This document shows positions 16,365 to 63,542 of a DNA stretch of 64,000 nt, piece by piece. The position numbers and the translations under genes were made by a program. Position 1 is the first letter of the stretch; each line of letters opens with the position of its first letter. Source of the DNA: Gloeobacterales cyanobacterium. Lineage in GTDB: Bacteria; Cyanobacteriota; Cyanobacteriia; Gloeobacterales; PMM-0068. The stretch spans positions 1 through 64,000 of the forward strand of contig JBBRSB010000027.1 in assembly GCA_038245785.1 (NCBI GenBank). Reading direction: 5' to 3'. The notes under the pieces were generated by a model. That model ran no database searches, had not been told where the DNA came from, and worked only from the letters and a program-made list of their open reading frames with translations.

Positions 16365-16370
16365 AAAAAC

Positions 16371-19565: not shown

Positions 19566-19593
19566 GAGGGTCTCCCTTTAAATTAGGTCTAAG

Positions 19594-31093: not shown

Positions 31094-31276
31094 ATGCCTA
31101 CTCGCCGGACACGCCCTGCTCAAGACCAAGAGGATGATTCAGCTCCACGTTCAAAAACCGAAATCTTACGAGATCCTGCGATGCTGCAAGCACTCAGTGA
31201 AAGGGTCTATGAATTATTGCTGGAAGATTTGCGTATTCAAAGAGAACGTAATAGAAATTATGGGGGGTGGTACTGA
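31094..31276 (+). CDS. Small CIS-associated protein (L..RVY.LL..L..RER motif)
   Basis: Stop overlaps the tube-gene start (TGATG); motif shared with C-terminus of 31806-34799. Confidence 0.65.
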   Translation: MPTRRTRPAQDQEDDSAPRSKTEILRDPAMLQALSERVYELLLEDLRIQRERNRNYGGWY

Positions 31277-31773: not shown

Positions 31774-31805
31774 GTCATTGTGAAGCCCTGATCTGCAGGA
31801 AGGTT

Positions 31806-34799
31806 ATGGATACACTATCTGACGATGAAGTACTACTCCCTCTGGGCTTAGCTAATCCCTTGCTTCCTCCCGAACCGCTTGGGCAGGAGCCACTGTATCC
31901 CCAGTTTTTGATGCCTGTTGCCACAGTACCTTTGATGGCAGCCAATCCTGCTGTGTTTTTCCCAGAGGGGCTACCAGGCTACCAGCCACCTGATAATACC
32001 TTCCAAGAATCTCCTTTCTTTATCCAAGCAAGAGAAGCCCTGAGGCCCAGGCCAATAGAAGTTCTGCCGGAAGTTTCCCCAAGAGCCCCTCGCCCTCCAC
32101 GCTCCGAATTGCTGAATGAATTGGCTCCTCCAGAGAACTTCGAAACCTTCTTGGAAGCTCCAGAGATAGAGGCAGAGTTAACAAGCCCTCTTATAGAAGA
32201 GCTTGAAGCTCCAAATCTTGAAAACATTCCAGCCCTAGAAGAATTAGCAGAAGTAGAGTCGAATGTTATTTCTGAAGCGATAGAAGTAGAAGAACCGTCA
32301 GCAGTGCAACCTGCGATAGACACGCCTTCTCTTTCTCCAGAGACTACTTCCACGCCTATATCCGGCCCAGAAGAAAACCTCATCTCTGATCCTTTGCTCA
32401 CAGAACCGATAACGACTAATCCGATTCCTGAGGAAGCAGAACTATTGCCTGCTGGGGAGTTATCGGCTGTTCTCACGGAGCCTGAGTTCCCCCAAGTTGT
32501 AGAAACGCCGGAAGTCCTAGAACCAGAAATAACCGCTGAGCTTCCTGCGCTACCTATCGAGGCAGAGGAACCAGTTTCCCAAGAAGCAGCGTTAACCTCA
32601 GAGATTCCCGTTTCTTTTATCCCTACGGAAGAAGTGGGAGAAACAACAGAAGTAGTGACCGATGTTATCAATCCAGAACCAGAGCTTCTATCAGGCTTGC
32701 AACTGGAGACATCAACGGAAAATAGTCAGCTTGAGGAGATTGCTCTTGAAGCGGAAGAAACGCTCCAGGCTCCCGAACCTGCTGTAGTGCAAACCGTGGT
32801 GGCAGAGACAGAAGAACCCATCCTGGAATCCCCAGCCGTTGAGAATACTGAACTTTTAGAATCCCCAGTGCTTCCAGAAATTGAAGTGCCCGAAGAGGTT
32901 CCCCTGGCTGCGTCTTCTTCTGAAGGAGCTGAGCCTCTTTCCGAACTCCCTGAGGAACCCCCGATCGAGTCTGAAGGGCCAATCCTGGCTACCCCAGAGA
33001 TCGAGAATGCTGAACTTTTAGAATCTCCAGTTCTTTTAGAAATTGAAGTACCAGAAGAAATTCCTCCAATAGCAGCATCTTCTCCCGAAGAAGCGCCTCC
33101 TGAAGTACTAGAAACGCCTATTGCCACTTCTGAGATAATTCCCAAAGAACAAAAAGAAATAGGTATTGTTTCAGAATCATCGCCTCTGGAAGAAGAAGCA
33201 GAAGGTGCAGTGAGTACTTCAGAAGCGGCAACATCATTACCCGTCGAAATAACAGCTGAAGCCTCGCAAAGCGCAGAGACCGCTCCGCCAGAAACCTATG
33301 AAGAGCAATTACTAATCACCGAAGAGGTTCCAATCAACATAGAAAGTGAGGAACCTCCTGTCACTCCAAAAGTAGAACCAATTGCAGCGGAGCAAAACGT
33401 ACCCGAAGAAACTATAGCGAGTAGTGTTGAATCTTTGGCCGCCCGTGTTCAAGAAATGGCCACACCCATAGTTGAACAGGGTCTTGAAAATGAGCCGGAG
33501 ACAGAAGCCAGTCCCCTGATTTCCAGACGTCAAGAATTTTTAGAAGAGCAAATTGAAGTCTCTAGTGGGCTGGAACCAGAAGAGTTAGGTGTAAAAGAAG
33601 CGGCCTTTGTCCCAGAGAATGTGAGTCCAGAAGTCCATCAAGAGAGCAGCGCTAACCCAGAAACAGAGATAGCAGAAACCCCTCTCTTAGAAATCCCTGG
33701 TCCTGTCCTTGTGCCCACAGAGGCTTCTGCTGCCGCCCCTGAAAATCCCTTGGTTGAAGAAGAACAGGAAAACCTATCCGTTCCCAATCAACCAGAAATG
33801 TTGAGAGCACCAGCAGTAGAAAACTTGGAAGTCATTCCTTCACTACCGACTATGCTTGAAGATTTAGGAATTCTTACTTCCTTAATCACTGCTTCCCCCC
33901 TCACGCAACTATCCAATTTTCTGCCGACTTCCTCTGAGCCATTCTCCTCTGGGCGTCAGATGGGAATGCCTTTTGGATTAGAACAGCCGATGACCTTTGC
34001 CTCACCTAATGTCCCGCGTCAAACTATTACACGCAGGGAAGAGGATTCTGTGGCACCCACTCCAACTCCCGAACCGAGCCTATTAACCACTCCTAACTCA
34101 CCCGAACCTTCAGAACAAAATTCACCTAGAGAGAATCAATCAGCAGAAAATACACAAGAGACTGTCAATGCTGAAACCACAAAAACAGATGGAAACATAA
34201 CAGCGGAAGCATTGGTTTCCCCCAGACAAGAGGCGCTATTGCAGTCTCTTGAAGAAGAAATTCAGTTACCCATAGTTAATGCTCCATCCGTGATGCGCAG
34301 CAATGGTAATTATATCCCTCTAACCTTTGCCTCTAAACCTACACCCAGATCACGCAGCACGGCCCAACAAGAAAGAGCACCCAGTTTTTCAACTGAAGAA
34401 AATATACCCACTGAATGGTCCAGCATAGAGGAATTAATTAGAGGGAATTCATCTTCAAGAAGTGAAGAATTGATTTCATCTCTTATGAATCCAGAATCAA
34501 CGAACTTTGACAATTGGGAAAATCTGATATCGTATGGTTCTAATAGAAACTATACTTCACCAGAAGGTAATGAAGAGCAAGGATACTCTTCTACTTTTAT
34601 GCCCCTAGAACAAAGCAATGAAGAAACTACAGAAACCTTAAAAGGGAATGATGAATTCTCACTAGAAAATATTAATGAAGAGGAAATGGATGAACTGGAA
34701 CTTGAAGTTTTAGCACGAAAAATCTATAGTTTTCTACAGCAAAAGTTAGCTATAGAAAGAGAGCGTAAGGGATTGTATATAGGTCGTTTGCCTTGGTAA
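31806..34799 (+). CDS. Glu/Pro-rich low-complexity CIS protein (possible tape-measure/lumen protein)
   Basis: 997 aa, very acidic; conserved-looking C-terminus LEVLARKIY..L..KL.IERERKG; internal duplication at about 32817 and 32979. Confidence 0.65.
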   Translation: MDTLSDDEVLLPLGLANPLLPPEPLGQEPLYPQFLMPVATVPLMAANPAVFFPEGLPGYQPPDNTFQESPFFIQAREALRPRPIEVLPEVSPRAPRPPRSELLNELAPPENFETFLEAPEIEAELTSPLIEELEAPNLENIPALEELAEVESNVISEAIEVEEPSAVQPAIDTPSLSPETTSTPISGPEENLISDPLLTEPITTNPIPEEAELLPAGELSAVLTEPEFPQVVETPEVLEPEITAELPALPIEAEEPVSQEAALTSEIPVSFIPTEEVGETTEVVTDVINPEPELLSGLQLETSTENSQLEEIALEAEETLQAPEPAVVQTVVAETEEPILESPAVENTELLESPVLPEIEVPEEVPLAASSSEGAEPLSELPEEPPIESEGPILATPEIENAELLESPVLLEIEVPEEIPPIAASSPEEAPPEVLETPIATSEIIPKEQKEIGIVSESSPLEEEAEGAVSTSEAATSLPVEITAEASQSAETAPPETYEEQLLITEEVPINIESEEPPVTPKVEPIAAEQNVPEETIASSVESLAARVQEMATPIVEQGLENEPETEASPLISRRQEFLEEQIEVSSGLEPEELGVKEAAFVPENVSPEVHQESSANPETEIAETPLLEIPGPVLVPTEASAAAPENPLVEEEQENLSVPNQPEMLRAPAVENLEVIPSLPTMLEDLGILTSLITASPLTQLSNFLPTSSEPFSSGRQMGMPFGLEQPMTFASPNVPRQTITRREEDSVAPTPTPEPSLLTTPNSPEPSEQNSPRENQSAENTQETVNAETTKTDGNITAEALVSPRQEALLQSLEEEIQLPIVNAPSVMRSNGNYIPLTFASKPTPRSRSTAQQERAPSFSTEENIPTEWSSIEELIRGNSSSRSEELISSLMNPESTNFDNWENLISYGSNRNYTSPEGNEEQGYSSTFMPLEQSNEETTETLKGNDEFSLENINEEEMDELELEVLARKIYSFLQQKLAIERERKGLYIGRLPW

Positions 34800-34832
34800 T
34801 AATTCAAACGTTTTGAGAGGATAAATATCACT

Positions 34833-35408
34833 ATGAAACTTGAGAAAGCTAGCCTTATTCCAGTCGATGGGGAAAAGGCTGATCCTATAAAATTTATGTT
34901 TAATCCAACGCAGCTTAGTTTTTCTCGTAAAGCTGAATGGAAAGATAAAAAAGGTGCTCGGGGTGATGATGATGTCTTGTCTACCACAGATTTCACCGGG
35001 GTCGTGCCCTATGTCCTTAATATCAAGAAGATTATTTTTGATACTTATGAAAGTAGCGAAGATGTCCTAGAGCAGTACTTAAATAGGCTTAAGCAATCTG
35101 TCACACCGACAGAACATACTAATTCTAGTAAAGGTGCTAGTGGTCAAAGTGCAACAAAAAATCGGAAACGCCCACCTGTATATATATTTACTTGGGGAGA
35201 GCTGGGAAAGCGGGAAAAGGAGGGAAAACTGATTGAATTCCGATGTGTTGTGACCACTCTTGCGTATAACTTAACTATGTTCTTACCTAATGGCATACCC
35301 GTCCGCGCTGAAGTAGACCTGACCTTAAAGGAGGTAGATAAAGAAAGGCAAAATCAATCTGGGACTCCTCAGCCTACTTCTAAGCAACGAGAGGAAGGAG
35401 GAAGGTAA
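34833..35408 (+). CDS. CIS tube initiator (Afp7/Pvc7-like)
   Basis: LEKA..I.FMFNP.QL..FDTYE..RPP..F.WG..TMF..NG.PVRA.V.LTLKE. Confidence 0.85.
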   Translation: MKLEKASLIPVDGEKADPIKFMFNPTQLSFSRKAEWKDKKGARGDDDVLSTTDFTGVVPYVLNIKKIIFDTYESSEDVLEQYLNRLKQSVTPTEHTNSSKGASGQSATKNRKRPPVYIFTWGELGKREKEGKLIEFRCVVTTLAYNLTMFLPNGIPVRAEVDLTLKEVDKERQNQSGTPQPTSKQREEGGR

Positions 35409-35523
35409 AAACTAAGGGATTAAGCAAGAAGAGGAACGAAGTAGGAATAAGACTGGTTATCTTGACGTTTGAATAATTGATGAAAGTTTGAGTTGGCCAC
35501 ATAAGAAATACTTAGGTGCATTT

Positions 35524-37335
35524 ATGCCAAGTAATGAGAGCCGCTATATCTCTCGCCTCTCCATTCAATTAGAAGGTTTGAAGCGAGAAAAACAGCAAAA
35601 ATTGAGTCAGGATGTACTTCAGTTATTTATTGAAGAAAGTCTCCACTTGCCAGCTATGTTTACAATCATTTTGCATAATCCTTTCACTACTGGACGCAGC
35701 CAAGATGAGCATCCCTGGTTGGAAAATAATACTCTGGCTATTGGTAAGTGGATCAAGTTTGGTTTTCATACTGCTACTACGGAGGCTCAAGAATTCCAAA
35801 CAGAAAAATCTATTGACTGTATTTTTGAAGGCGAGATTACTGCGATTGAAGCTCATTTTACGGAGGGTGGGGATGCGCCAATTGTAATTCGAGGTTATGA
35901 CGCATCTCATCGTCTCCATCGGGGACGCTATAACCGCTCCTTTGTGAATATGACTGATAGCGACATCGTTAAGAAAATTGCTAATGAAGTAAGCATTAGA
36001 AAAGGCAAAATCGATGATAGTGGTGCTCCTCATGACTATGTTTTCCAGGAGAACCAGACGAACATGGCTTTTTTACGGGAAAGGGCAGCTCGAATCGGCT
36101 TTGAACTCTTTGTTCTCTATGACAGCGAAGAAAAAGAGAATAAACTGCATTTCCGTAAACCCCAGACAGATCAATCTCTAGACCTGAAATGGCTCGTGGA
36201 TATCCATAGTTTCCGCACTCGCATAACCAGCGCAGAGCAGGTGAGTTCGGTAGAAGTCCGGGGATGGGATTACGGGGAAAAAAAAGCAATTGTCTCTACT
36301 GCTAGGCGCGAACGCCTAATTACTGAAACAGGAAGCCAACAGGGAAGCCAGACCAGTACAAAATTCCGTCTCGATAGCCAACCTCCTAAGATGATTGTGG
36401 TAGATCAGCCTGTATTCAGTCCAAAAGAAGCAGACACCATGGCTCAGGCTCTATGCGATGAACTAGGTGGTGAATTTGTCTATGCTGATGCAAAAGGTCA
36501 GGGGAATCCAGATATCCGTCCAGGCCGGGTGGTGAAGCTCCAAGGTATGGGGGAACGTTATAACGGTGAATACTACATCACTGAAGCTCGCCATATCTTT
36601 CATGAGAACGTATATACCACCGAATTTAGTGTGCGAGGTTTGCGCGGGGGCAGCCTATTCGATACCTTATCCCCTCAAACTCACCTCAAACCAGGACAGA
36701 CTTTTCTAGTTGGAATTGTCACTAATAATAAAGATCCAAAAGGTTGGGGCCGGGTCAAAGTCAAATTTCCAACGCTAACAGAAGATCATGAAAGTCATTG
36801 GGCCAGAGTTGTAGGCGTCGGTGCCGCCAATCATCGGGGGTTCGATTGCTTGCCCGAAGTGGATGATGAGGTACTGGTTGCTTTTGAACATGGAGATATT
36901 CATCGGCCTTATATCTTGGGTGGAGTTTGGAATGGGAAAGATGCTCCTCCTGAGAAGGTAGATGATTCTGTTCAAGATGGCAAGGTGCGCCTACGAACGA
37001 TTAAAACGCGCACCGGGCACGTCCTCCAATTCGTGGAAGAAGATAAAGGGGGCAGCAAGGCAGGGATTTACATCACAACTTCCGGTGGACACAAAGTGCG
37101 AATCAATGACAGCGACCGCAAAGTTGAAATTGAAACTAATGGCGGTCATACCCTGACGATGGATGATCATGGAGTAGGAAGTATCAGCATGAGTTCCACG
37201 GGCAGCATCAGCATCGAAGCCAGGACCAGTATTGATATCAAGGCCAACACCAGTATCAGTATCAATGGAGCCACGATTAGCATTAAAGGAACAGGTCCTG
37301 TCACCGTTCAAGGAACCCCAATTGCGCTTAACTAG
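35524..37335 (+). CDS. vgrG: VgrG-like spike (Afp8/Pvc8)
   Basis: gp27-like N-part (F.GEITA.E, RGYD..HRL.RG, Q.NQT..FL..RA.R.G), gp5 OB fold (DP..GRVKVKFP, LPEVDDEVLV.F..GD..P), beta-helix C-terminus. Confidence 0.93.
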   Translation: MPSNESRYISRLSIQLEGLKREKQQKLSQDVLQLFIEESLHLPAMFTIILHNPFTTGRSQDEHPWLENNTLAIGKWIKFGFHTATTEAQEFQTEKSIDCIFEGEITAIEAHFTEGGDAPIVIRGYDASHRLHRGRYNRSFVNMTDSDIVKKIANEVSIRKGKIDDSGAPHDYVFQENQTNMAFLRERAARIGFELFVLYDSEEKENKLHFRKPQTDQSLDLKWLVDIHSFRTRITSAEQVSSVEVRGWDYGEKKAIVSTARRERLITETGSQQGSQTSTKFRLDSQPPKMIVVDQPVFSPKEADTMAQALCDELGGEFVYADAKGQGNPDIRPGRVVKLQGMGERYNGEYYITEARHIFHENVYTTEFSVRGLRGGSLFDTLSPQTHLKPGQTFLVGIVTNNKDPKGWGRVKVKFPTLTEDHESHWARVVGVGAANHRGFDCLPEVDDEVLVAFEHGDIHRPYILGGVWNGKDAPPEKVDDSVQDGKVRLRTIKTRTGHVLQFVEEDKGGSKAGIYITTSGGHKVRINDSDRKVEIETNGGHTLTMDDHGVGSISMSSTGSISIEARTSIDIKANTSISINGATISIKGTGPVTVQGTPIALN

Positions 37336-37359
37336 ACCTCTATTCAAGGAGAAATTGCT

Positions 37360-37803
37360 ATGGCGGGTAGACCTGCTGCTCGAATTACAGACCTTACAGC
37401 TCATGGTGCACCGCTATTACCAGGGCCGGGGAGTCCCAACGTGATTATTGGAGGACTTCTGGCCTGGCGGGGAGTGCCCGCAGCGATGGGACAGCAAATG
37501 AAACAGCTCTCTGAACAGAATCAACGGGAGATTGATTTGGCTGTCGCTCCTCCTGCCAAGGCTGCGGCGATAGCAAAAGGATTAGCAGCTGGTTCGCTCA
37601 TGGCTGCAGCCTTCCCCTGTGATAAAAATCTCTGTCCACCGCCCCCTATCCCAACAATTCATGGCATTGGTGTAGTGATTGATGGGAGCCAAACAGTTCT
37701 TATCAATAACCTGCCTGCCTGCCGCATGGGCGACACCGTTCAGGAAGCTACTAGTACGAATAAGATTGCGTTTGGCTTACCCACGGTTCTGATTGGTGGC
37801 TAG
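37360..37803 (+). CDS. PAAR spike-tip protein
   Basis: PAARITD..HG; GSQTVLINNLPACRMGD; TVLIGG. Confidence 0.93.
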   Translation: MAGRPAARITDLTAHGAPLLPGPGSPNVIIGGLLAWRGVPAAMGQQMKQLSEQNQREIDLAVAPPAKAAAIAKGLAAGSLMAAAFPCDKNLCPPPPIPTIHGIGVVIDGSQTVLINNLPACRMGDTVQEATSTNKIAFGLPTVLIGG

Positions 37804-42739: not shown

Positions 42740-44842
42740 TTATCTGCGGTTTACTTCTTGAAAACTCATCCTGCCAAAACCAACAAATTGCTTGACTGGT
42801 TTGCTGCCGATGGGAAAGGCATTAATTTCAAAGAGATAGGTTCCTGCCTGACCGGGATTGCGGATTGGCTTGAAATCTACTGCCACGGTTTGATTGGGCT
42901 GTATCGGTTGGTCAAAGTTTATAACGACGGTTCGACCCTCCAAGGTGACCTGAGCGGGGAGGACGCGTGCAGGAAGAAAGGCGCCGTCACTATCTGGATT
43001 GGAAGGAATATATGCTTTTACATCTCCTGGATTGGGGACATTTGCTCCAAACGCTCCAAAGTTATCAGGAATATTAATCGTAAGACGGGCCAAGGGCTGA
43101 TTGGCTTCAGGGGGAATTTTGATACCAAATTGGTAGGTGGAAGGATAGTAGTCTACGATTCTGTATAAGTTATTTGATTTTTTGAGCTGTAGGGCTGTGG
43201 CAAAAGCGGTGGGCAGTTCATAGAAAGCAGGTAAATCGCCTGCGGGAAGCACGGTAACCGCAATACTATTAGCACTGCCCGATGAGGCTGCTTTACGAAT
43301 CTCAGGGATTTTGACAGTTACTTCTGTGCCCGCAGGAACTGGCTTTTCAAAGGTGATGTCATAGGTTTTCCCCTTTAACTCCGCACTTTTAACAGGGATG
43401 GACGTATTGTTCATTGCAAGCAGTACCTGGTCGGAACTAGGCGGTGTAAACCCTTCAGGGAAGTCCACGAGAATTTGGCCCATATCTTTCCCCGCTCCTT
43501 TTGGAAGAGCGACGGTGAACTGATAGGTAGCACTGGGATTGGCCGGGTCGCCTCCGGGGGTCCAGCTGGTTTGTGAAACCTTGAGATTGGTGCCCGGATT
43601 AAAAAAGGTTGGAACTTGCAAGTTGAAGCCAGCATCCTCCGTAGCGACCTTGGCCACAATCAGGTCTTCCAGGGCCTCTGCGCTTTCTTTACCCTCTGCC
43701 AAGCCTTTCAACTGATAGGAGCGGCCTGGAGTGAGATCAGCAGTTGTCTGTTCTGGAAACGTTCCTTGGAAGATGCCTTGACTTTGATAGGTAAGGGGCA
43801 GCGTGGCGACGACTTTATCCTTATCTAAAAGCTGTACCGTAACTTTGACATTTTCTGGCTGGGGAGCGGTGACGAGCGTCTCTATCTTCAGCGCTTCTCC
43901 TGGAATAATTTGTTCACTGGTCTGTTCAGAAAAAGCAATCTGGGTAGGAGTACTGGATGTAGTTGGCTGCGTCGCTACAGGTTCTTGAGTTTCAGGTGGT
44001 TTAGACGATACTTCCGGTTTGGGTTTCTTCGGTGGTACGGTAACTGGAAGCTTACTCGCAGGCTGGACAGGTTGAATCACCTGAAGCCCTTGACGGACAT
44101 TCCCAAAAAGTTCACCATCACTGACAATTGTTCGCAGACTATAACGAGCTTTTGGATTCAGCCTTTTGCTTATTTCAGGCCCAAATTTAACAACGTATAG
44201 ATTGGATTGTTTTTGAAAAACTGGCTTCACCGCCACGAATACTTTATCGCCTTCTAGCAGTTGAACAATGGCCTGTATTTTCGTAGGTGTTTCATCTTTG
44301 ACCCGAAAAGCGACCGTTATCGGCTGTCCCGACTGCACCTGTTGACTGGTACTACGATCGAACTGTGGACGCGGAGCTTTATTGGGCGGCGGTGTTGGTG
44401 GCGTAGTCGTTTTAGGCGTAACGTCTTTGGATGCAACGGGCTCGGTGGCATTGATTGATATTTTCTTGAAATAATCAGCAAGGGTTATCTTGCCTGTTGC
44501 CATGGACAACAATACAGCGGTAGAAATATCTGCTGCCCAAGGTTTAGATTGAATACCAAGATTGCCCTGGAAATCAGGACGAAAACGCAACACGATCAAC
44601 GCCGCTTGAGTCGATGTTTTTTGAAAAAATGGCTTACTTTCTGGTCCCCCTTTCTCTGCGAACAGGAGCCAGCGCTGTTCTTGTTCGGTCTGTAAACGAT
44701 AAGGGCCAAAGGTTTTTAGTCGGCCATCACTATTGAGGGTATCGGTGATCGCCCTGGGGCTAGTTCCTGCTTGGGCAGGGGTTAAAGTACCTATGCTTAA
44801 ACCGAGCAAAAGGCATAGTAGCAGTGGCTTATTTGAGTGCAT
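42740..44842 (-). CDS. Secreted protein with tandem DUF2808-like domains
   Basis: Signal peptide from MHSNKP; FDQPIQP.QTV.V...PIRNP..AGTYLF..AFP.G..F.G.GR.F. Confidence 0.75.
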   Translation of the reverse strand: MHSNKPLLLCLLLGLSIGTLTPAQAGTSPRAITDTLNSDGRLKTFGPYRLQTEQEQRWLLFAEKGGPESKPFFQKTSTQAALIVLRFRPDFQGNLGIQSKPWAADISTAVLLSMATGKITLADYFKKISINATEPVASKDVTPKTTTPPTPPPNKAPRPQFDRSTSQQVQSGQPITVAFRVKDETPTKIQAIVQLLEGDKVFVAVKPVFQKQSNLYVVKFGPEISKRLNPKARYSLRTIVSDGELFGNVRQGLQVIQPVQPASKLPVTVPPKKPKPEVSSKPPETQEPVATQPTTSSTPTQIAFSEQTSEQIIPGEALKIETLVTAPQPENVKVTVQLLDKDKVVATLPLTYQSQGIFQGTFPEQTTADLTPGRSYQLKGLAEGKESAEALEDLIVAKVATEDAGFNLQVPTFFNPGTNLKVSQTSWTPGGDPANPSATYQFTVALPKGAGKDMGQILVDFPEGFTPPSSDQVLLAMNNTSIPVKSAELKGKTYDITFEKPVPAGTEVTVKIPEIRKAASSGSANSIAVTVLPAGDLPAFYELPTAFATALQLKKSNNLYRIVDYYPSTYQFGIKIPPEANQPLARLTINIPDNFGAFGANVPNPGDVKAYIPSNPDSDGAFLPARVLPAQVTLEGRTVVINFDQPIQPNQTVAVDFKPIRNPGQAGTYLFEINAFPIGSKPVKQFVGFGRMSFQEVNRR

Positions 44843-47276
44843 TGTTCCATTCTTTAATGAGTTTTTCTGATTCAGGATAACGCTTAGCTTCAGGAGGAAC
44901 TTGGGTGGCGGTAGCCACCGCTTGACGTAACAAAGTAGCATCTTCATTCAACATGCCAAGGTTGCCATTTGAGGTGGCTCCCTGCAGCAGTTCATCAGCC
45001 CAAGTGTCACTAACTTTTTGCAGTAATTGCTTGGCCTGAGTCGTTTCAGGTGCTTTGGGAGCCAAGGAAAGCAAGCGTTTGATATCCTCATAGCTTTCTT
45101 TCCACTGCTGCTGTTGTGCATGGTCCTGAGCCAATACAAACTGGCCAGTACTGCATTGCTTCACCAAAACCTGTAAGGGGTCTTCGATATTTTTAGGAAC
45201 CGTCAGTCCTTGCAATTGATTGATTTGTTGCAAGCAATCTCCCCAGCGTTTCTCTTTGGCTGCTTGTTGCGTATCTTCAAGCAATTTCCTTGCTAAGGGG
45301 TCGGAGCCTCCTTTGTCGACAATAGCTGGGGGAGCGTTGAATTGGGGCAGAACAAAAACTGCGGTTGCCAGGGCCAGGGCCACGAATGCACCCCCGATCC
45401 ACAGTCCAATGGAGGGTTGAGGCTTGGTGAAGGTATCCTGAGCAGGCGAAGAGGGTTGAAACTCTGTGCGGTCTAGGGTTGTAGATACAGACCGACCTTC
45501 CTCCACATAGGTTTGGGCTCGCTGCTGGGCCAGCTCCGCTTTCCATGCTGCCTGTTTGTTTTGCGCTTCAGATTCAAACACGGTCCCAGAAACTACGGTG
45601 GCTGCTCGACTAATCGCTTCATCATACTTTTTCTCAGCAGCTAGTCTTTCAGCTTGCTCCAAGGCTTGCTTGGCCTGGATTTCTTTCAGCCACAGGGGTC
45701 TACGTTGTAAAGCCCGTGGCTGACTCACCGTTCCCGCCGGAATGCTTGCCAACTGTTTGACCGCTTGTTCCCAACGCCGCTCTGCTGCCAGAGATTCTGC
45801 CCTGCGCAAAATATCAGCTGCTTGTTGTTCCTTTTTCCACTGGGATATCAGCGGGTTCAAACGCTGACTGACTCCCGGCAGCTTGTTAATCAGTTCCGCT
45901 CTCTGTAGCGCTTCAGACCATTTCTCTCCGCGCGCTAAATCTTCCGCCGATTCCAGGACTTTTTCGATCCAGCGTTGGGATTCTGGTTGGGCCGTACTGT
46001 ACACCACAGAGTTGGAAGGAATCGTTCCGACGGTGGATACAGCCCGGACCAAACTGCTGATTTCTCCTTCTTGAGCCATCTGGCGAGCCTGTTCTAAAAC
46101 CCGCTGGTACTCAGCTTCTAGCTGCCAGCTTTTCAAGAAGTTCTGGGCTTCCGCATAGACCGGAGAGCTATAGCTAATGTGCTGAACCAGGGAGCTAGCT
46201 TCAGCCCAGCGACCTTGAGCGGTCAATTGGAGGGCACTGTTCAGAACTTGTTGGTCCTGCTGCCGGAGACTGTCTTCCTGGAGGCGTCGTACCGCTCGTT
46301 CTAACTGCTGGCTGATTTCGACACTGCTCTTTGGACGGTCTTGGGGATTTTTCTCAAGACACTTGAGGATAACGTGCTCTATCTCAGCGGGTACCGGGCG
46401 GTCGGGATTAGCTTGTGCCATCGGTCGCGGAGACTGCTCATTGTGCGCCCGATACCAGGAGGCAAAGGAATCATCTTCCACCGCAAAAGGCTTAGCTCCA
46501 GAAAACAACTCATATAGAATCAGCCCCAAACTATAGAGGTCCGAACGCAGGTCTATCTCCCTACCCTGCAGTTGCTCTGGAGAAGAATAGCGTGGAGTGC
46601 CCATGTAGCCCTGGGTCAAAGGTCCTGTCTGCGCTAGAGCTGCATCCCGCAAAAATTTGGCAATACCGAAATCCAAAATCTTCACCCGCTCTCCCCGTTG
46701 CGCATCGGGGATGAGATAGATATTGCTCGGTTTCAGGTCACGATGAATAACACCCTGTTCATGGGCTACCTGGAGCCCTTCGCAGAGTTGCTGCACGATG
46801 GAGACTATTTGTTCTAGTTCCAGGTGGGCATCGGGTCGAATCAATTCTTCCAAATCGCGGCCCTGGAGAAATTCCATGGCGTAGTAAGGAAGGTCTAGCT
46901 CATCGAGAATGCCATAGTCGCGGATTTGGACAATATTGGGGCTGCGGTCTCCTAGGCGGGCACAAATCGAGGCTTCATCTCGGAACCGCTGACGCAAAGC
47001 ATCATTATCGACACAGCTCTGGGCCAGTAGTTTGATTGCCACCACCAAGTCAGGAATCTCTGTGTGCACCCCTTTGTAGACAGAACCCATGCCGCCTGCA
47101 CCAATCTTTTCAACGAGTTGGTAGCGACCAACCGTACGGTTGAGGAAAGTATCGCGACGGGTATAGGGTTGAGACACAGGTGGAAACAGAAAAAGTGAAT
47201 AATTGTTTTGTCCACAATATGGCATATTTCCAGGAAATAGTGGATATTCAGTTACCGTAAGTAGCAATAACATCAC
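44829..47276 (-). CDS. Transmembrane Ser/Thr protein kinase with helical (TPR-like) repeats
   Basis: IGAGGMGSVY, VAIK, HRDLKPSN, DFG, GTPRYSSPEQ; helical repeats; TM WIGGAFVALALATAVFV; start uncertain. Confidence 0.92.
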   Translation of the reverse strand: MMLLLLTVTEYPLFPGNMPYCGQNNYSLFLFPPVSQPYTRRDTFLNRTVGRYQLVEKIGAGGMGSVYKGVHTEIPDLVVAIKLLAQSCVDNDALRQRFRDEASICARLGDRSPNIVQIRDYGILDELDLPYYAMEFLQGRDLEELIRPDAHLELEQIVSIVQQLCEGLQVAHEQGVIHRDLKPSNIYLIPDAQRGERVKILDFGIAKFLRDAALAQTGPLTQGYMGTPRYSSPEQLQGREIDLRSDLYSLGLILYELFSGAKPFAVEDDSFASWYRAHNEQSPRPMAQANPDRPVPAEIEHVILKCLEKNPQDRPKSSVEISQQLERAVRRLQEDSLRQQDQQVLNSALQLTAQGRWAEASSLVQHISYSSPVYAEAQNFLKSWQLEAEYQRVLEQARQMAQEGEISSLVRAVSTVGTIPSNSVVYSTAQPESQRWIEKVLESAEDLARGEKWSEALQRAELINKLPGVSQRLNPLISQWKKEQQAADILRRAESLAAERRWEQAVKQLASIPAGTVSQPRALQRRPLWLKEIQAKQALEQAERLAAEKKYDEAISRAATVVSGTVFESEAQNKQAAWKAELAQQRAQTYVEEGRSVSTTLDRTEFQPSSPAQDTFTKPQPSIGLWIGGAFVALALATAVFVLPQFNAPPAIVDKGGSDPLARKLLEDTQQAAKEKRWGDCLQQINQLQGLTVPKNIEDPLQVLVKQCSTGQFVLAQDHAQQQQWKESYEDIKRLLSLAPKAPETTQAKQLLQKVSDTWADELLQGATSNGNLGMLNEDATLLRQAVATATQVPPEAKRYPESEKLIKEWNNALK

Positions 47277-47479: not shown

Positions 47480-47668
47480 CTAATGAATACTATCAGGGCC
47501 TTCAGAATCTGATTCTTCTGGTAGTGCTAAAGGTGGGTCCAACGGTTCTATGAGGATCTGGTTTGGAGCAAGTGTCGCTTCTAGATTCCAGCCATTTTCC
47601 TCTTCCATTTGTTGTTGAAGATCTTGCCATTCTTGTTGTTGTTGAAAATCTGGCAGTCCGGGGTCCAT
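47480..47668 (-). CDS. Small acidic Gln-rich orphan (candidate cargo)
   Basis: CAAGGAGA RBS 6 nt before ATG; composition like neighbours. Confidence 0.65.
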   Translation of the reverse strand: MDPGLPDFQQQQEWQDLQQQMEEENGWNLEATLAPNQILIEPLDPPLALPEESDSEGPDSIH

Positions 47669-47829
47669 AGTTCATCTCCTTGTCATTGTTTATTGTGAAT
47701 AGACTCACGGTTTCTTTGACTATTAGAAAAGTAGTGACTTTAGACCTGGATACTGCTGCTAGTCACTATAATTCAAGAGTCTTTGACACTATCTGCATAA
47801 ATGTTGTTTGAAACACTGAAAACATGATT

Positions 47830-48234
47830 CTAAGCTGCTGGAGCAGTCATTGGCCCGCCGTGATTTTCATCCTCGGATTCATAATCACCCGAGTATGGAG
47901 GCTGGTATTCAGAATAATTTTCTGGAGTAGGTTCAAAAAGTTCAGGCTCTGGATTGTTATCTATCTCAGCTCTTAAACCAAAACTCGTTTCCAGTACTTC
48001 CTGATCTTCTCCATTTGGATAAGGAGGAGTTTCCTCTATAATCACATCTCCGTCAGCATCTAGAGGGAAATGGGGACTTTCCCCTTCTTCCATGATGATG
48101 TCTTCGTCAAGCAGAAAAGGGTCTTGATCCACATCTTCATGAGCGATAAGGCTATCTTCATCTTGTGTTTCTGTACTTGCTTCTTCAACGGGAACTTCAG
48201 AAGATTCTAAAGGCTCATACTCGTTTTCTTCCAT
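47830..48234 (-). CDS. Acidic low-complexity orphan (candidate cargo)
   Basis: CAAGGAGA RBS before MEENEY; Glu/Asp/Pro rich. Confidence 0.7.
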   Translation of the reverse strand: MEENEYEPLESSEVPVEEASTETQDEDSLIAHEDVDQDPFLLDEDIIMEEGESPHFPLDADGDVIIEETPPYPNGEDQEVLETSFGLRAEIDNNPEPELFEPTPENYSEYQPPYSGDYESEDENHGGPMTAPAA

Positions 48235-48436
48235 GGTGCTTCTCCTTGTAGTTAGTTGACGAACCAATGATTGTGTAGCCAGTGACTGCAATCTTTGTTT
48301 CTGTCCTACATACGTCGGAGGATATTAGATGGATCACTAAGGTGGGCAAAATTTTTTGAGCCCTTAAAATAAATAGAGCATTGTTGTTATAGCAATGCTC
48401 TGCACTGACCAGACGCCATAGAACGATGGACAGGGT

Positions 48437-49474
48437 CTATCCCATGTCAGTATCTTCTGGGGGCATGGGATAATCGCCCAAGGGATGCTGTTCTTGCTCT
48501 TGTATCTTTAGCCGTTCATCCCGTTCTCTTTGCCAATTAGGGTCATCATTGTCTGTATTAACGCCAACGCCTCCACTACTTGGCTGATAAAAAGAGCCCA
48601 CTGTGCTATCTAAGGCTGTATGAGCATCGCTTTCAGCATTATCTCGATGGGCGAGGTAGCTATTCATCATTTCAGTACTGGCCGATGCTGCTGCCTGATC
48701 CGAACCACGGATTAAGTTGCTATTACTATCCAAAGGGACTTCATCAAAAGCTTCTACGTGGGTATCGTCTGCCCCAAAGCCCACGGGATTGAAAACATTA
48801 ATGCTCTCAACAGGAGCATGGGGGTCTGCGGTATTACTCGTGTCGCGGAACATATGGGCGTTGCTGTAGCTGTCTTCGAGGGCATGGGTAGCCTGTCCCA
48901 GGTCGCGCATCTCTTGCGCTTGCAGATCTGCCTTCGAAACTCCATTCCAGTCATCTATTCCAGGGTCATCATGCAGATCTTCGATAGAGTCTTGGTTATC
49001 CTTCAAATTCGAGGCAGCTCGCCCTGTGAGTACACTACGCTGAATTCCCTGGTTAATCTCCTCGTGTGACAGAAATCCATCACGGTTGCTGTCCAGTTTA
49101 TCGAAGTTTTTGAGGGCGTCATGGTCTGCCTTCGCAGTCTCTAATTCATCTGTGACAAAGTTGCGAATATCTGCCAAATTCTGTTCACCAGATTTATTTG
49201 GATCAGCCATACTATGCTCTCGTTGGGCATCACGGGCCGCCCAATATGGCTTCCAGGTATCTCCCCCACCGAAAGTACTATCCTCACCAAAAAACTCGTT
49301 TACGATCGGGGCACCCGGACTGCGGTCAGCATATTTCTGACCTTCATCTAAAGCGGCATAAAACTGGTCAAAATTCATCCCATCTACTTGACCATCAACA
49401 GCTCTCGCGGCAAAGAGCTGTCGCGCCGCTTCTTGTGTAATTGCATGGTGACCAGCATCTTTCTTTTGGTCCAT
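48437..49474 (-). CDS. Putative Zn-dependent phospholipase C/P1 nuclease (HET-C-like) fold protein with EF-hand insertion; candidate effector
   Basis: HHAITQEA, YADR, EHSM, LGQATHALEDSYSNAH metal-ligand pattern; DSNRDGFLSHEE EF-hand. Confidence 0.6.
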   Translation of the reverse strand: MDQKKDAGHHAITQEAARQLFAARAVDGQVDGMNFDQFYAALDEGQKYADRSPGAPIVNEFFGEDSTFGGGDTWKPYWAARDAQREHSMADPNKSGEQNLADIRNFVTDELETAKADHDALKNFDKLDSNRDGFLSHEEINQGIQRSVLTGRAASNLKDNQDSIEDLHDDPGIDDWNGVSKADLQAQEMRDLGQATHALEDSYSNAHMFRDTSNTADPHAPVESINVFNPVGFGADDTHVEAFDEVPLDSNSNLIRGSDQAAASASTEMMNSYLAHRDNAESDAHTALDSTVGSFYQPSSGGVGVNTDNDDPNWQRERDERLKIQEQEQHPLGDYPMPPEDTDMG

Positions 49475-49526
49475 TTTTTGTAGAGCTCCTTGTTAGTATG
49501 TACAGAACATAGGTTCGCGGTTAAAA

Positions 49527-49961
49527 CTAAGCCCAAGTTGGATCTTCTGGTGGCATTGGATAATCCCCAGGCTCAGAAGGCGTCGAATCATCTGTCGGAA
49601 TTTCAGGATACTCTTCTGGCTGCGCATTCAGAATCACAGGTTTTCCTGTGAGCGGGTCATGAATAATCATCGGTGGCTGAGGGTGCATCTGTTCGTTGGC
49701 TTTCCGAATCGAGCGAGTAACCGGATCTTCTTCAGAAATTGTTGGAAGAGGATCGGGCTTCCACCATTCATGAGGTCCTTGCTCACCCCGACGTTGGGCT
49801 TCTCGTTTATCCTCTTCCTCTTGTTCCGCTCGTCGACGTTTTTCTGGATCGTCATAGCGGTCACTGGTGCTTCCCTTTGGCGTGACCCCAATCTGCCAAT
49901 CTCCCACAGTCACACCAAGACCCGTATCGTTTATTTCTAGTTCATCTTCGTCAGGATTCAT
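49527..49961 (-). CDS. Acidic Pro-rich orphan (candidate cargo)
   Basis: AAGGAG RBS; ends GDYPMPPEDPTWA. Confidence 0.7.
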   Translation of the reverse strand: MNPDEDELEINDTGLGVTVGDWQIGVTPKGSTSDRYDDPEKRRRAEQEEEDKREAQRRGEQGPHEWWKPDPLPTISEEDPVTRSIRKANEQMHPQPPMIIHDPLTGKPVILNAQPEEYPEIPTDDSTPSEPGDYPMPPEDPTWA

Positions 49962-50063
49962 TCTGTATCTCCTTTGACTTTTAAATAAATAATCAGGTGA
50001 TTTGAAACTTCCTCCCAGTAGTCACCCTCGATTTCATCATCCACAATCTAGCCATCGATTTCA

Positions 50064-50110
50064 GTAGGAAAAAGTGAGAACGTTCTCTTGCAAAGGTTTT
50101 AAAAAGTAAT
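50064..50110 (-). promoter_or_regulatory. Candidate operator pair upstream of 49961
   Basis: Minus strand ATTACTTTTTAAAAC (50096-50110) and CTCACTTTTTCCTAC (50064-50078). Confidence 0.5.
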
Positions 50111-62126: not shown

Positions 62127-63542
62127 ATGTATTACCTGGCTGTGGGTGATTGCTCTTCTCTACCCAATCGCTATCAGATGACTGGGGAAGCCAAGCAGCC
62201 CAAGATTATTGAAGATGCGGAGCCAGAACTCGCTCCAGACCCTAACCCGCAAGTGATGCCTGCTCTTTGTCGCCCCTATCAGCGTTTAAATGCTTTTCGC
62301 TGGGCAATACCGGGTGTACACACTTATTTCGGTCCTAAAGAAGCTCCCTGCGTTCTTTTAGAAGAGGTTCCGATAACAGCCGATGGTTGCCTTTGGCCTA
62401 GTTTAGAAGAAGCGTGGGTCGAGGCAACGCTCCTCCATCAACTGGGATGGCTCCTACAGATTGCCCGCCTTTGGGACCCCTGCCTTCAAGAAGGCGTGGC
62501 GCTATCTCTATTGCAACCAGAAAATATTCGGGTTCAAGGTTGGCAGGCCCGTCTCTCTTTTTTGGAACACGATACTTCTGTTCCCTCTCTACAGGAGCTA
62601 GGAAGCTCTTGGCAGCAGCAGTTGACCCCGATGGTGCTCTCCCTGCAAATGCTGACTCAATCTTTAGCAGAAGGAAAAATGACTCGGGTGGGAGACCTGA
62701 TAGGGGAATTGGAATCTCTGGCTTTGCAGTATGGCAGTAGCGCGAAGGTGGAAGGGATTGCGGGGGCGACCGATCCCGGCAGGCGCGAGAATAACGAAGA
62801 CACTTTTGCCTATGATCCTGAAGGGCACTATGGCATTGTTTGCGATGGCATGGGAGGCCATGAAGGAGGAGAAGTAGCAAGTAACTTAGCCGTTCAGAGC
62901 CTGGCACAAAATGCTGTTTCCCTGGCGCAGCAAACGTTTTCCGCACTCCAGCTCCGCCAAGGCTTGGCCGATGCGCTCTATCAGGCCAACCAACAAATTT
63001 TTGAACTCAACGAACAGCAGGGACGAGACCGCTATCGGAAGATGGGAACAACTGCTGTTGCCTATTGTTTGACAGGACCCCTCCTGCATCTTGCTCATGT
63101 CGGAGACAGTCGCATCTACCTCATCGACCAACAGCATTGTCAGCAGGTAACGGTGGATGATGATATCGCCAATTTAGAAATCAGCCTTGCCCGGACTACC
63201 CGCAGTGCTATTCGCTCCATAGCCTCTGGCGGTGCGCTCACGCAAGCGCTTGGTGTGATTGATAATCACTCGCTACAGCCAACGGTGCAGACGTTTGTTC
63301 TACCCGAAGATTGCCTGGTTCTACTGTGTAGTGATGGTTTATGCGATGGTTCTCTCGTCGAACAGCATTGGCAAGATGCCTTCCTGCCCCTTTTGCATCA
63401 AGACCTGAGCGATAAAACGCAGGGTTTAATCGAATTAGCCCTCAAAGAATTAGGGCATGACAATATCACTTTTGTCCTTCTGCAATATTCCACAGGACAA
63501 GCTCAGGTTGGCAAACGGAGTACCACTGACCTACAGGACTGA
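62127..63542 (+). CDS. PP2C-family Ser/Thr phosphatase with extended N-terminal domain
   Basis: TDPGRRENNED, VCDGMGGHEGGEVAS, MGTT, HVGDSR, LCSDG, GHDNIT. Confidence 0.93.
   Translation: MYYLAVGDCSSLPNRYQMTGEAKQPKIIEDAEPELAPDPNPQVMPALCRPYQRLNAFRWAIPGVHTYFGPKEAPCVLLEEVPITADGCLWPSLEEAWVEATLLHQLGWLLQIARLWDPCLQEGVALSLLQPENIRVQGWQARLSFLEHDTSVPSLQELGSSWQQQLTPMVLSLQMLTQSLAEGKMTRVGDLIGELESLALQYGSSAKVEGIAGATDPGRRENNEDTFAYDPEGHYGIVCDGMGGHEGGEVASNLAVQSLAQNAVSLAQQTFSALQLRQGLADALYQANQQIFELNEQQGRDRYRKMGTTAVAYCLTGPLLHLAHVGDSRIYLIDQQHCQQVTVDDDIANLEISLARTTRSAIRSIASGGALTQALGVIDNHSLQPTVQTFVLPEDCLVLLCSDGLCDGSLVEQHWQDAFLPLLHQDLSDKTQGLIELALKELGHDNITFVLLQYSTGQAQVGKRSTTDLQD

What the first reader, a model, noticed from the sequence alone, without database searches (positions are those of the whole stretch)
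48437..49474. EF-hand-interrupted Zn-phospholipase C/P1-nuclease-like protein: probable Ca2+-gated effector
Seen: HHAIT, YADR, EHS and LGQATHALEDSYSNAH occur in the order of the metal ligands of the phospholipase C/P1 nuclease (HET-C-related) fold. A canonical EF-hand loop (DSNRDGFLSHEE) is inserted between them. Inference: a membrane- or nucleic-acid-degrading effector activated by Ca2+ after delivery, which might explain the lack of an obvious immunity gene.
Basis: partly seen in the sequence, partly recalled or inferred. Interest (0 to 1): 0.7.

Follow-up and report, generated by a model that had tools for sequence, protein, structure and literature searches.

The report
Zinc phospholipase-C-fold protein with EF-hand insert
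This gene of an early-branching cyanobacterium encodes a leaderless enzyme with the fold and metal-binding residues of bacterial zinc phospholipase C and P1 nuclease, interrupted by a calcium-binding EF-hand module; it looks like a toxin-type hydrolase, but its link to the neighbouring injection machine is weak.

Summary
ORF 48437..49474 (-) encodes a 345-aa acidic protein with no signal peptide and a good ribosome-binding site. Two independent AlphaFold models were searched against 48,161 PDB chains: the target (pLDDT 85) and an insert-less homologue (pLDDT 92). In both, the same six top hits appeared: B. cereus PLC (Z 11.3/10.6), Listeria PLC, alpha-toxin and three S1/P1-type nucleases. The next unrelated hit scored Z 4.7-5.6.

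Eight His/Asp residues (H9, D50, H87, H197, D201, H207, H239, D244) are kept in 55-60 of 60 homologues. They lie in the order of the PLC tri-zinc ligands.

Residues ~117-186 are one EF-hand-pair module, present only in Gloeobacterales. Loop 1 is canonical and conserved in 11 of 11 insert-bearing sequences. Loop 2 is degenerate.

No Pfam model reaches its threshold. The nearest family is VWA7_N/HET-C.

The effector reading is only partly supported. The gene lies near the gp25/baseplate-J genes in this genus only. In three complete Gloeobacter genomes the orthologue lies 0.36-3 Mb from every injection-system gene block. Six of seven distant homologues sit next to a TPR-bPH membrane protein instead.

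Calcium gating is plausible but untested. This is a new variant of a known superfamily.

The parts
48437..49474 (-). Whole ORF, 345 aa plus stop. pI 4.3, no Cys, no signal peptide or TM segment. Single copy in the genome.
49486..49491 (-). Shine-Dalgarno AAGGAG, 11 nt upstream of the ATG.
49127..49474 (-). Core part 1 (residues 1-116). It holds the conserved N-terminus M-D-Q and the candidate metal ligands H9 (49448..49450), D50 (49325..49327) and H87 (49214..49216).
   Evidence: model residue 1 aligns with residues 1-3 of mature B. cereus PLC
48917..49126 (-). Inserted EF-hand-pair module (residues ~117-186), Gloeobacterales-specific. It is homologous to a ~70-aa unit repeated 8 times in a 1193-aa multi-EF-hand protein.
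   Evidence: (Z 5.9, 57 aligned, model 121..186)
49058..49093 (-). EF-hand loop 1, DSNRDGFLSHEE (residues 128-139). Canonical; the liganding positions are conserved in 11/11.
48926..48967 (-). EF-hand loop 2 (residues 170-183). Non-canonical: with V179 at position 8, positions 1 and 5 are G and W. Probably no canonical Ca2+ site.
   Evidence: sequence reading
48485..48916 (-). Core part 2 (residues 187-330). It holds H197-x3-D201-x5-H207 (motif 48854..48901) and H239...D244 (48743..48760).
48440..48484 (-). Disordered acidic/proline C-terminal tail with GDYPMPPED, a motif shared with the C-terminus of the upstream ORF 49527..49961.
   Evidence: pLDDT < 50 for residues 332-345
49527..49961 (-). 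Upstream acidic ORF C (144 aa), probably co-transcribed. It ends in GDYPMPPEDPTWA. It is conserved next to the target only in the same genus.
47830..48291 (-). Downstream acidic ORF D (153 aa, pI 4.05). No family hit, and no homologue in any of the 10 related loci searched. Not a conserved immunity candidate.
51732..54361 (+). Context: gp25-like and baseplate-J-like genes of the contractile injection system, on the opposite strand about 2.3 kb away, beyond three further small ORFs.

Best explanation
The gene encodes a leaderless, very acidic metal-dependent phosphodiesterase. It belongs to an unnamed family in the zinc phospholipase C / S1-P1 nuclease / HET-C (VWA7_N-like) fold superfamily.

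Shown: the fold; eight conserved His/Asp residues in the order and, for H-x3-D-x5-H, the spacing of the PLC tri-metal site; a domain that starts at residue 1, as mature PLC does; and a ~70-residue EF-hand pair inserted at the tip of the helical hairpin whose second helix carries H197 and D201.

Inferred: EF loop 1 binds Ca2+. The enzyme is a toxin-type hydrolase that works outside the producer's cytoplasm, more likely on membrane phospholipid than on nucleic acid. Ca2+ occupancy (and Zn2+ supply) makes it active or stable only there, so it stays harmless in the low-Ca2+ cytoplasm.

The export route is open. In this genus the gene lies near the baseplate operon of a contractile injection system, but that link is not conserved.
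For: Fold. VIA-align of the target model (pLDDT 85.3, pTM 0.86) against 48,161 chains gave six top hits that are all from one superfamily: 1ah7 PLC Z 11.3 (168 aligned, rmsd 3.6), 8cqm 10.8, 1olp alpha-toxin 10.6, 8qjl 8.4, 3w52 7.5, 5fb9 7.4. A second model, of the insert-less homologue P0030 (pLDDT 91.9), gave the same six at Z 10.6-7.4, and the next hit was Z 4.7.

Ligands. Conservation is 55-60 of 60, and the motif matches the alpha-toxin H126/D130/H136 stretch.

Superfamily link by sequence. Homologues P0018, P0019 and P0055 hit Pfam VWA7_N at E 9e-6, 3.6e-4 and 8e-3. The ESM Atlas neighbours include VWA7_N (0.90), Zn_dep_PLPC (0.87) and HET-C (0.86) clusters.

EF-hand..

Toxin-like traits of the family:
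- No signal peptide, with the domain at the N-terminus.
- Fusions to M23 peptidase in 2 of 46 representatives scanned.
- Gly-zipper inserts in Gloeobacter orthologues.
- Tox-HET-C was described in PVC-type and T6SS toxin systems, cyanobacteria included (passages of PMC3482391).

PLC hits score higher than nuclease hits in both searches.
Against: No Pfam, NCBIfam or PDB sequence model reaches significance for the catalytic part. My profile-profile comparison with thin PF00882 alignments was not significant, E 0.15-0.47. Foldseek found nothing at E <= 0.001.

I could not read model coordinates, so clustering of the eight residues in space is inferred from the fold match, not measured. The tool warns that Z below ~13 can arise by chance for helical proteins.

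EF loop 2 is degenerate. The insert is ~14 helical residues from the nearest ligand, so gating is not implied by the anatomy. Substrate and localisation are untested. No RNA data were available.
Confidence: 0.55

Rival explanations
1. It is dedicated cargo of the adjacent contractile injection system. It would be loaded into or onto the particle and switched on by Ca2+ after delivery.
For: It lies in a run of six acidic, Cys-free small ORFs (pI 4.05-4.34) on the opposite strand from gp25/baseplate J. The same order of genes recurs in a second genome of the genus. All 6 genomes with the gene also have the sheath gene. No signal peptide. HET-C-type toxins are reported in PVC-like systems. ORFs A and B weakly resemble tape-measure repeats (PHROGs E 3e-4 to 0.04), and a similar repeat forms the C-terminal tail of homologue P0017.
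Against: In three complete Gloeobacter genomes the orthologue lies 0.36-3 Mb from the sheath, baseplate-J and VgrG genes, among housekeeping genes. The slot next to gp25 there also holds housekeeping genes.

Eleven of 17 sheath-positive relatives lack the gene. The six genomes with the gene belong to two genera, so the co-occurrence is not independent.

Seven distant loci show no injection-system gene among the 37 ORFs scanned, though the contigs are short. No PF13699 domain is found in the protein or the genome.
Confidence: 0.3
2. It is an S1/P1-type nuclease or another phosphoesterase rather than a phospholipase.
For: The same fold and ligand set serve nucleases. Three of the six top structural hits are nucleases at Z 7.4-8.4, and S1 nuclease ranks 2-6 in Foldseek for the insert-less model. 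Zhang et al. leave both activities open for HET-C.
Against: PLCs score about 2-3 Z units higher in both searches. Gly-zipper inserts occur in some orthologues, and amphipathic repeat tails with weak Phasin/Perilipin hits in some homologues; both point to membranes or lipid surfaces. None of this is decisive.
Confidence: 0.25
3. The EF-hand pair is a structural or targeting appendage and not a switch, for instance for Ca2+-dependent folding or membrane docking. This would be like the Ca2+-binding C-terminal domain of alpha-toxin (recalled knowledge). The enzyme itself would be constitutive.
For: The insert sits at the distal tip of a helical hairpin. In the insert-less model that hairpin closes with a 2-residue turn, helices 84-104 and 107-124 (compare). 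Loop 2 is degenerate. The module is a mobile repeat unit found in unrelated multi-EF-hand proteins.
Against: The exiting helix of EF-hand 2 runs straight into the helix that bears H197 and D201. A change in the angle between the EF-hand helices could therefore reach the metal site.
Confidence: 0.4
4. It is an intracellular housekeeping or signalling enzyme of Gloeobacterales, for example Ca2+-responsive lipid or phosphate turnover, and has nothing to do with attack.
For: It is leaderless. The Gloeobacter orthologues sit among metabolic genes. No conserved immunity gene was found.
Against: Tri-zinc enzymes of this fold with known function are extracytoplasmic (established knowledge, recalled). 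The family shows M23-peptidase fusions and long low-complexity tails. It has a patchy distribution: 1 strong match in 401 genomes of the phylum, but many hits in soil metagenomes.
Confidence: 0.15

Closest known systems
Zinc-dependent phospholipase C: B. cereus PC-PLC (1ah7), Listeria PlcB (8cqm), clostridial alpha-toxin N-domain (1olp, 1qm6)
   Same: - All-alpha fold: Z 9.8-11.3 with 158-171 residues aligned.
- The domain starts at the very N-terminus.
- Same order of candidate ligands: H, D, H, H-x3-D-x5-H, H...D/E.
- The LG.A.H...D.....H motif matches the alpha-toxin stretch printed.
   Different: - No sequence-level match: no PF00882 hit at E <= 1 and no PDB hit.
- No signal peptide.
- N-terminal M-D-Q instead of Trp1.
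- H239-x4-D244 instead of H-x3-E.
- An extra beta-hairpin between H207 and H239.
- An EF-hand pair inserted between H87 and H197.
- No PLAT/C2-like C-domain.
S1/P1 nucleases (5fb9, 3w52, 8qjl)
   Same: Same fold and the same tri-metal ligand logic, Z 7.4-8.4.
   Different: Lower structural scores than the PLCs. No PF02265 hit. Nucleoside-binding residues not assessed.
Tox-HET-C / Pfam Het-C (PF07217) and VWA7_N (PF25107)
   Same: These are the nearest families by sequence. VWA7_N hits homologues at E 9e-6 to 8e-3, and the Atlas neighbours agree. HET-C was predicted to be PLC/S1-P1-like and is associated with PVC-type, T6SS and T2SS toxins, also in cyanobacteria (PMC3482391, passages read).
   Different: The target itself does not hit either model at E <= 1, and the best homologue stays under the cut-off, 25.6 against 27.5 bits. 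The published HET-C signature HxD ... HxxxDxxxH differs from HxxxD ... HxxxDxxxxxH here. No PVC-metallopeptidase/DUF4157 domain. The domain is N-terminal, not a C-terminal toxin cassette.
EF-hand Ca2+-binding effectors and modules (e.g. NCBIfam XopAW T3SS effector; multi-EF-hand/calpain proteins P0056, P0069)
   Same: Canonical 12-residue loop. The pair fold matches at Z 5-5.9 on model 121..186. There is 29-37% identity to each of the 8 repeats of P0056.
   Different: Here a single module is embedded inside a catalytic domain. The XopAW match is negligible, 16 bits against a cut-off of 120.

Membership tests
Zn_dep_PLPC (Pfam PF00882) | Score over the Pfam gathering threshold | tested here: not met
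   No hit at E <= 1 for the target. None among the 55 homologues scanned at E <= 0.01 to 1.
Zn_dep_PLPC / PLC-P1 fold superfamily | All-alpha PLC/P1 fold | tested here: met
   The six top hits of 48,161 chains are PLCs and S1/P1 nucleases in two independent models, Z 11.3-7.4 and 10.6-7.4. The next unrelated hits are Z 5.6 and 4.7.
Zn_dep_PLPC / PLC-P1 fold superfamily | Tri-metal site: N-terminus plus H, D, H, H, D, H, H, D/E brought together in space | tested here: inconclusive
   Eight conserved residues in the right order, with one motif matching alpha-toxin. Model coordinates were not readable, so no distances were measured. Metal content is not testable here.
S1-P1_nuclease (Pfam PF02265) | Score over the Pfam gathering threshold | tested here: not met
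   No hit at E <= 1.
VWA7_N (PF25107) / Het-C (PF07217) | Score over the Pfam gathering threshold | tested here: not met
   Target: no hit. Best homologue P0018: 25.6 bits against a cut-off of 27.5, E 9.3e-6. Het-C: no hit in any scan.
Tox-HET-C (Zhang et al. 2012) | Signature H, [DE], HxD, HxxxDxxxH, Nxx[DE], [ST]G | tested here: not met
   The target has H87-x3-D91 and H197-x3-D201-x5-H207. The signature is taken from the table passage.
EF-hand | 12-residue loop with O-ligands at positions 1, 3, 5 and 12, Gly at 6 and a hydrophobic residue at 8, flanked by helices and paired with a second hand | tested here: met
   D128, N130, D132, G133, L135, E139, with helices on both sides. Conserved in 11/11. 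Pair fold Z 5.9. Pfam scores are under the cut-offs: 20.1 bits against 25.9 for EF-hand_5. The loop rule itself is recalled knowledge.
EF-hand | Ca2+ binding | not testable with these tools
   Needs ITC, 45Ca overlay or a structure.
Contractile-injection-system cargo | Encoded in or next to the CIS gene cluster across relatives | tested here: not met
   Near the baseplate genes in 2 genomes of one genus. Unlinked in 3 complete Gloeobacter genomes.
Contractile-injection-system cargo | eCIS_core/DUF4157 (PF13699) marker domain, or physical presence in particles | tested here: not met
   No PF13699 in the protein or in the genome, which is 98% complete. Presence in particles is not testable here.

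The most novel reading that the evidence does not exclude
A leaderless tri-zinc phospholipase whose helical hairpin has captured an EF-hand pair as a built-in Ca2+ switch. It would be inert at cytoplasmic Ca2+/Zn2+ levels, so it would need no immunity protein. It would become active only once the contractile injection system of thylakoid-less cyanobacteria releases it. That would make it the first lipid-targeting cargo, and the first self-safing mechanism, known for a cyanobacterial injection system.
Probability: 0.12. Interest if true: 0.75.

Novelty: new variant of a known kind. Interest (0 to 1): 0.45.

Why it matters
It defines an unannotated family with at least 68 clusters (50% identity) at E <= 1e-10. 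The family links the zinc PLC / P1 nuclease fold to HET-C/VWA7-type toxin domains.

It also shows a natural domain insertion: a Ca2+ sensor module sits between two ligand-bearing helices of a metalloenzyme. My two literature searches found no paper that combines an EF-hand with zinc-dependent phospholipase C, or with contractile-injection effectors.

If Ca2+ does control activity, it would be a compact example of a toxin made safe by cofactor availability rather than by an immunity protein. It would also give a candidate payload for the poorly understood injection systems of cyanobacteria, where the passages read from one paper (PMC8894136) name only DUF4157 proteins as putative effectors. If Ca2+ does not control activity, this is one more hypothetical hydrolase family with a decorative insert.

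Tried and rejected
- **Sequence searches for the catalytic part gave nothing.** Pfam, NCBIfam, PADLOC and PHROGs found nothing on the target. phmmer and hmmsearch against PDB sequences with the protein, A1 and A2 gave only EF-hand or chance hits.
- **Foldseek against the PDB.** No hit at E <= 0.001 for either model. For the insert-less model the PLC and S1 entries led the non-significant list.
- **Profile-profile comparison.** hhalign of A2 against small PF00882 alignments built from 12 ORFs of the phylum gave E 0.15-0.47. Three of the four best local alignments did place LG..H...D on the PLC G..H...D motif.
- **PF25107 search.** Among 201 genomes of the phylum only 2 members were over the cut-off, too few to build a profile.
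- **Metagenome locus scan.** It failed with A2 because no conserved stretch was found, and I repeated it with A1.
- **TPR-bPH_2 partner in the own genome.** Only generic TPR hits and one unrelated bPH_2 gene on another contig.
- **Gly-zipper likeness between ORF A and Gloeobacter orthologues.** Not detectable by BLASTP.
- **RNA evidence.** No RNA holder was listed for the locus.
- **Earlier scan notes.** None concerned this locus.
- **Supplements.** Those of the cited papers were not opened. The toxin tables of Zhang 2012 and Geller 2021 could list related proteins.
Full report
**What is there.** The ORF at 48437..49474 on the minus strand is open. It encodes 345 residues and is preceded by AAGGAG 11 nt before the ATG. 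The protein is acidic (pI 4.34; 68 D+E against 27 K+R), has no Cys, has no hydrophobic N-terminal stretch, and is single copy in the 5.0-Mb assembly.

**Relatives.**
- A word-indexed search found 22 proteins at E <= 0.01 among 3970 candidates. The named ones are from Gloeobacterales, including G. violaceus Gll3319 and G. kilaueensis.
- I aligned 19 of the 22 as A1. I left out P0003, P0004 and P0006, which are close to P0002 or shortened.
- The exhaustive search of 1.84 billion representatives gave 130 hits at E <= 1e-3, 68 at <= 1e-10 and 21 at <= 1e-30.
- Most strong hits match the query in two stretches, ~1-116 and ~186-330. A separate set of weaker hits matches only residues ~118-191; these are multi-EF-hand proteins, some with calpain or LysM domains.
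- For A2 I took 56 full-domain hits without the long insert plus 4 insert-bearing Gloeobacterales rows. I left out short fragments and the EF-hand-only hits.

**The catalytic domain.** No curated sequence model recognises it:
- Pfam gives only sub-threshold EF-hand hits.
- NCBIfam gives nothing useful.
- PDB sequence searches with the protein, A1 and A2 give EF-hand or chance hits only.

Structure prediction settles the fold.
- The target model (19-row alignment, pLDDT 85.3, pTM 0.86) has no significant Foldseek hit.
- The exhaustive VIA-align pass over 48,161 chains ranks six members of one superfamily first: B. cereus PLC Z 11.3 (168 aligned, rmsd 3.6), Listeria PlcB 10.8, C. absonum alpha-toxin 10.6, SmNuc1 8.4, a plant bifunctional nuclease 7.5 and S1 nuclease 7.4. 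EF-hand domains follow at Z 5-5.9 on residues 121-186 only. The best unrelated hit is Z 5.6.
- The tool warns that helical models can reach Z ~13 by chance. I therefore folded an insert-less homologue separately (P0030, 269 aa, 51-row alignment A3, pLDDT 91.9, pTM 0.92).
- The same six entries lead again at Z 10.6, 10.0, 9.8, 8.2, 7.8 and 7.4, and the seventh hit drops to 4.7.
- Foldseek for this second model is still non-significant (best E 0.2), but its first rows are Listeria PLC, S1 nuclease, alpha-toxin and PC-PLC.
- In both alignments model residue 1 pairs with residues 1-3 of the mature enzymes. This fits the strongly conserved N-terminus of the family: M1 40/60, D2 43/60, Q3 50/60.

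**The metal site.** In A2 the residues H9, D50, H87, H197, D201, H207, H239 and D244 are kept in 55, 58, 59, 59, 60, 58, 58 and 57 of 60 rows.

The order H, D, H, H-x3-D-x5-H, H...D is that of the eight side-chain ligands of PC-PLC and alpha-toxin; the ligand list itself is recalled knowledge. The PDB alignment printed shows the alpha-toxin stretch around H126, D130 and H136 with the same spacing and the same LG.A.H...D.....H pattern as residues 191-207 here, with 6 of 17 positions identical. In insert-less homologues H68 to H116 (P0021 numbering) spans 48 residues, close to the 49 between H69 and H118 recalled for PC-PLC.

I could not read coordinates, so spatial clustering is inferred and not measured.

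Sequence-level bridges to known families exist but are weak:
- VWA7_N hits P0018 (E 9.3e-6, 25.6 bits, cut-off 27.5), P0019 (3.6e-4) and P0055 (8e-3).
- The ESM Atlas neighbours include VWA7_N, Zn_dep_PLPC and HET-C clusters at 0.86-0.90.
- hhalign against thin PF00882 alignments was not significant.

Zhang et al. 2012 predicted that HET-C shares the fold and active site of PLC and S1-P1 nucleases. They listed it with T2SS, T6SS and PVC-type delivery, cyanobacteria included (passages read). Their signature differs in spacing from the one here.

**The EF-hand.** Residues 128-139 (DSNRDGFLSHEE) satisfy the canonical loop rule, which is recalled knowledge. Positions 1, 3, 5, 8 and 12 are conserved in 11 of 11 insert-bearing sequences, and Gly6 in 8 of 11.

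The model shows helix-loop-helix twice, with the short beta bridges typical of paired loops at residues 134 and 179. Residues 121-186 superpose on solved EF-hand pairs at Z 5.9, 57 aligned, rmsd 3.0. The whole ~70-residue unit is 29-37% identical to each of eight tandem repeats of a 1193-aa protein that passes the Pfam EF-hand models. It therefore looks like one copy of a mobile module.

The second loop is non-canonical. In this lineage it has drifted further from the module consensus: ELSNDEWGDENDGVT has become DLHDDPGIDDWNGVS.

The module is absent from 8 of 19 rows of A1, and 56 of 60 rows of A2 have at most 20 residues at that place. In the insert-less model the two helices it separates (84-104 and 107-124) are joined by a two-residue turn. 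So the insert sits at the tip of a hairpin, and the exiting helix of the second hand runs on into the helix that carries H197 and D201, 14 residues after D183. This anatomy allows a lever-type Ca2+ effect on the metal site, but it suits a docking or stabilising appendage equally well.

**Context.** The window holds contractile-injection genes in three blocks:
- Pvc16/sheath/three tube genes at 15.5-20.4 kb.
- Tube/997-aa ORF/CIS_tube/VgrG/PAAR at 31.2-37.8 kb.
- gp25/baseplate J/P2_I at 51.7-55.4 kb.

These blocks are interspersed with five FHA proteins, two Ser/Thr kinases and a PP2C phosphatase.

The target lies in a minus-strand run of six acidic, Cys-free ORFs (47480..51182) that is transcribed away from gp25. 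A terminator-like hairpin follows the second of these ORFs. The upstream ORF C and the target share a C-terminal GDYPMPPED motif.

A second genome of the same genus keeps baseplate J, gp25, a Gly-rich ORF at the place of ORF A (no sequence match found), ORF B, ORF C and the target in the same order.

Beyond that genus the link disappears:
- In three complete Gloeobacter genomes the orthologue is 0.36 to about 3 Mb from the sheath, baseplate-J and VgrG genes.
- In the two of these that I scanned with Pfam, its neighbours are housekeeping genes such as a sulfate permease, aminotransferase, MalQ, an amidase and a Zn transporter.
- The slot beside gp25 holds Uma2, Coq4, TetR and MacB, or PhoD, radical SAM and MnmE.
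- Among 31 relatives, 6 have a strong match to the gene (a seventh row, G017, is a weak partial hit at E 1e-4) and all 6 have the sheath. However, 17 of the 31 have the sheath, and the 6 belong to two genera.
- In 401 genomes of the phylum only the window's own genome gave a strong match.
- Seven distant loci from metagenomes (L024-L030) carry no injection-system gene among the 37 ORFs scanned; the contigs are only 1.8-10.4 kb.
- Six of those seven have an adjacent gene with TPR repeats and/or a bPH_2 domain: TPR plus bPH_2 in four, TPR only in one, bPH_2 only in one. I read two of the TPR-bPH_2 proteins, and both show two transmembrane helices before the bPH_2 domain. That partner is not found in this genome.
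- The eCIS cargo marker PF13699, present in the putative Anabaena effectors, is not found in this 98%-complete genome.

**Reading.** I take the protein to be a metal-dependent phosphodiesterase of the PLC/P1/HET-C fold with a functional first EF-hand.

The family looks offensive rather than metabolic:
- It is leaderless, although the known enzymes of this fold work outside the cytoplasm (recalled).
- It is patchily distributed.
- It carries long low-complexity tails.
- It is fused to M23 peptidase in 2 of 46 representatives scanned.
- Gly-zipper segments are inserted in Gloeobacter orthologues.

Phospholipid is the likelier substrate because PLCs outscore nucleases and the accessory segments point to membranes. 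A nuclease cannot be excluded.

Ca2+ control, and delivery by the neighbouring injection system, remain hypotheses at about 0.4 and 0.3. No conserved immunity candidate exists: ORF D has no homologue in any of the 10 related loci searched. This is compatible with, but does not show, cofactor-limited self-protection.

**Novelty.** The fold, the toxin-domain concept and its occasional association with PVC-like systems are already in print. What is new is an unnamed family close to VWA7_N with PLC-type motif spacing, and the EF-hand pair embedded in it. [quoted passage not shown] The main text of Geller et al. 2021 mentions no phospholipase or HET-C. Supplements were not read.

Noticed in passing
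window 50727..51182 (-) and 50158..50643 (-): Two acidic ORFs next to the divergent gp25 promoter. ORF A has a Gly-zipper-like hydrophobic stretch followed by SDAYDTVSDAASD repeats. ORF B has VWDTVSD-type repeats. Both weakly hit phage tape-measure PHROGs, E 3e-4 to 0.04. ORF A's repeats resemble the C-terminal tail of target homologue P0017: 61% over 28 aa, E 1e-4, low complexity.
   Followed up: partly
window 48440..48484 (-) and 49527..49570 (-): The target and the upstream ORF C end in the same GDYPMPPED motif, and it is kept in the sister genome L001. It could be a shared recognition tag. Function unknown.
   Followed up: no
loci L024, L025, L026, L027, L028, L030: Insert-less homologues from soil-type metagenomes are paired with a gene carrying TPR repeats and/or a bPH_2 domain, in 6 of 7 distant loci. 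The two partner proteins I read (L024, L028) have TPR repeats, two transmembrane helices and a bPH_2 domain. In L030 an M23 peptidase gene follows. This looks like a conserved two-gene module of unknown role.
   Followed up: partly
window 15560..20427, 31267..37803, 51732..55446: The contractile-injection-system genes are split into three blocks, interleaved with five FHA-domain proteins, two Ser/Thr kinases (14494..15336, 44829..47276) and a PP2C phosphatase (62127..63542). This recalls the threonine-phosphorylation control of T6SS. The blocks are dispersed megabases apart in Gloeobacter.
   Followed up: partly
window 31806..34799 (+): A 997-aa ORF between two tube genes has no Pfam hit. By position it is a candidate tape-measure or other large injection-system component.
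   Followed up: no
window 22886..23413 (+) and 23528..23920 (+): Two small proteins with RTX nonapeptide (HemolysinCabind) repeats lie downstream of a two-component system. They are further Ca2+-binding secreted-type proteins near the injection-system genes.
   Followed up: no
window 9755..10651 (+): A bacteriorhodopsin-like ORF, PF01036 at E 2.6e-42.
   Followed up: no
L001 11280..12494 (+): In the sister genome a long ORF that looks like a transposase (judged by eye from its sequence, not scanned) directly follows the target homologue, where this window has ORF D.
   Followed up: no
Gloeobacter orthologues P0009-P0012, P0014, P0023: A second lineage-specific insert of about 47-54 residues with Gly-zipper character sits between the beta-hairpin and H239. 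It is absent from the window's protein.
   Followed up: partly
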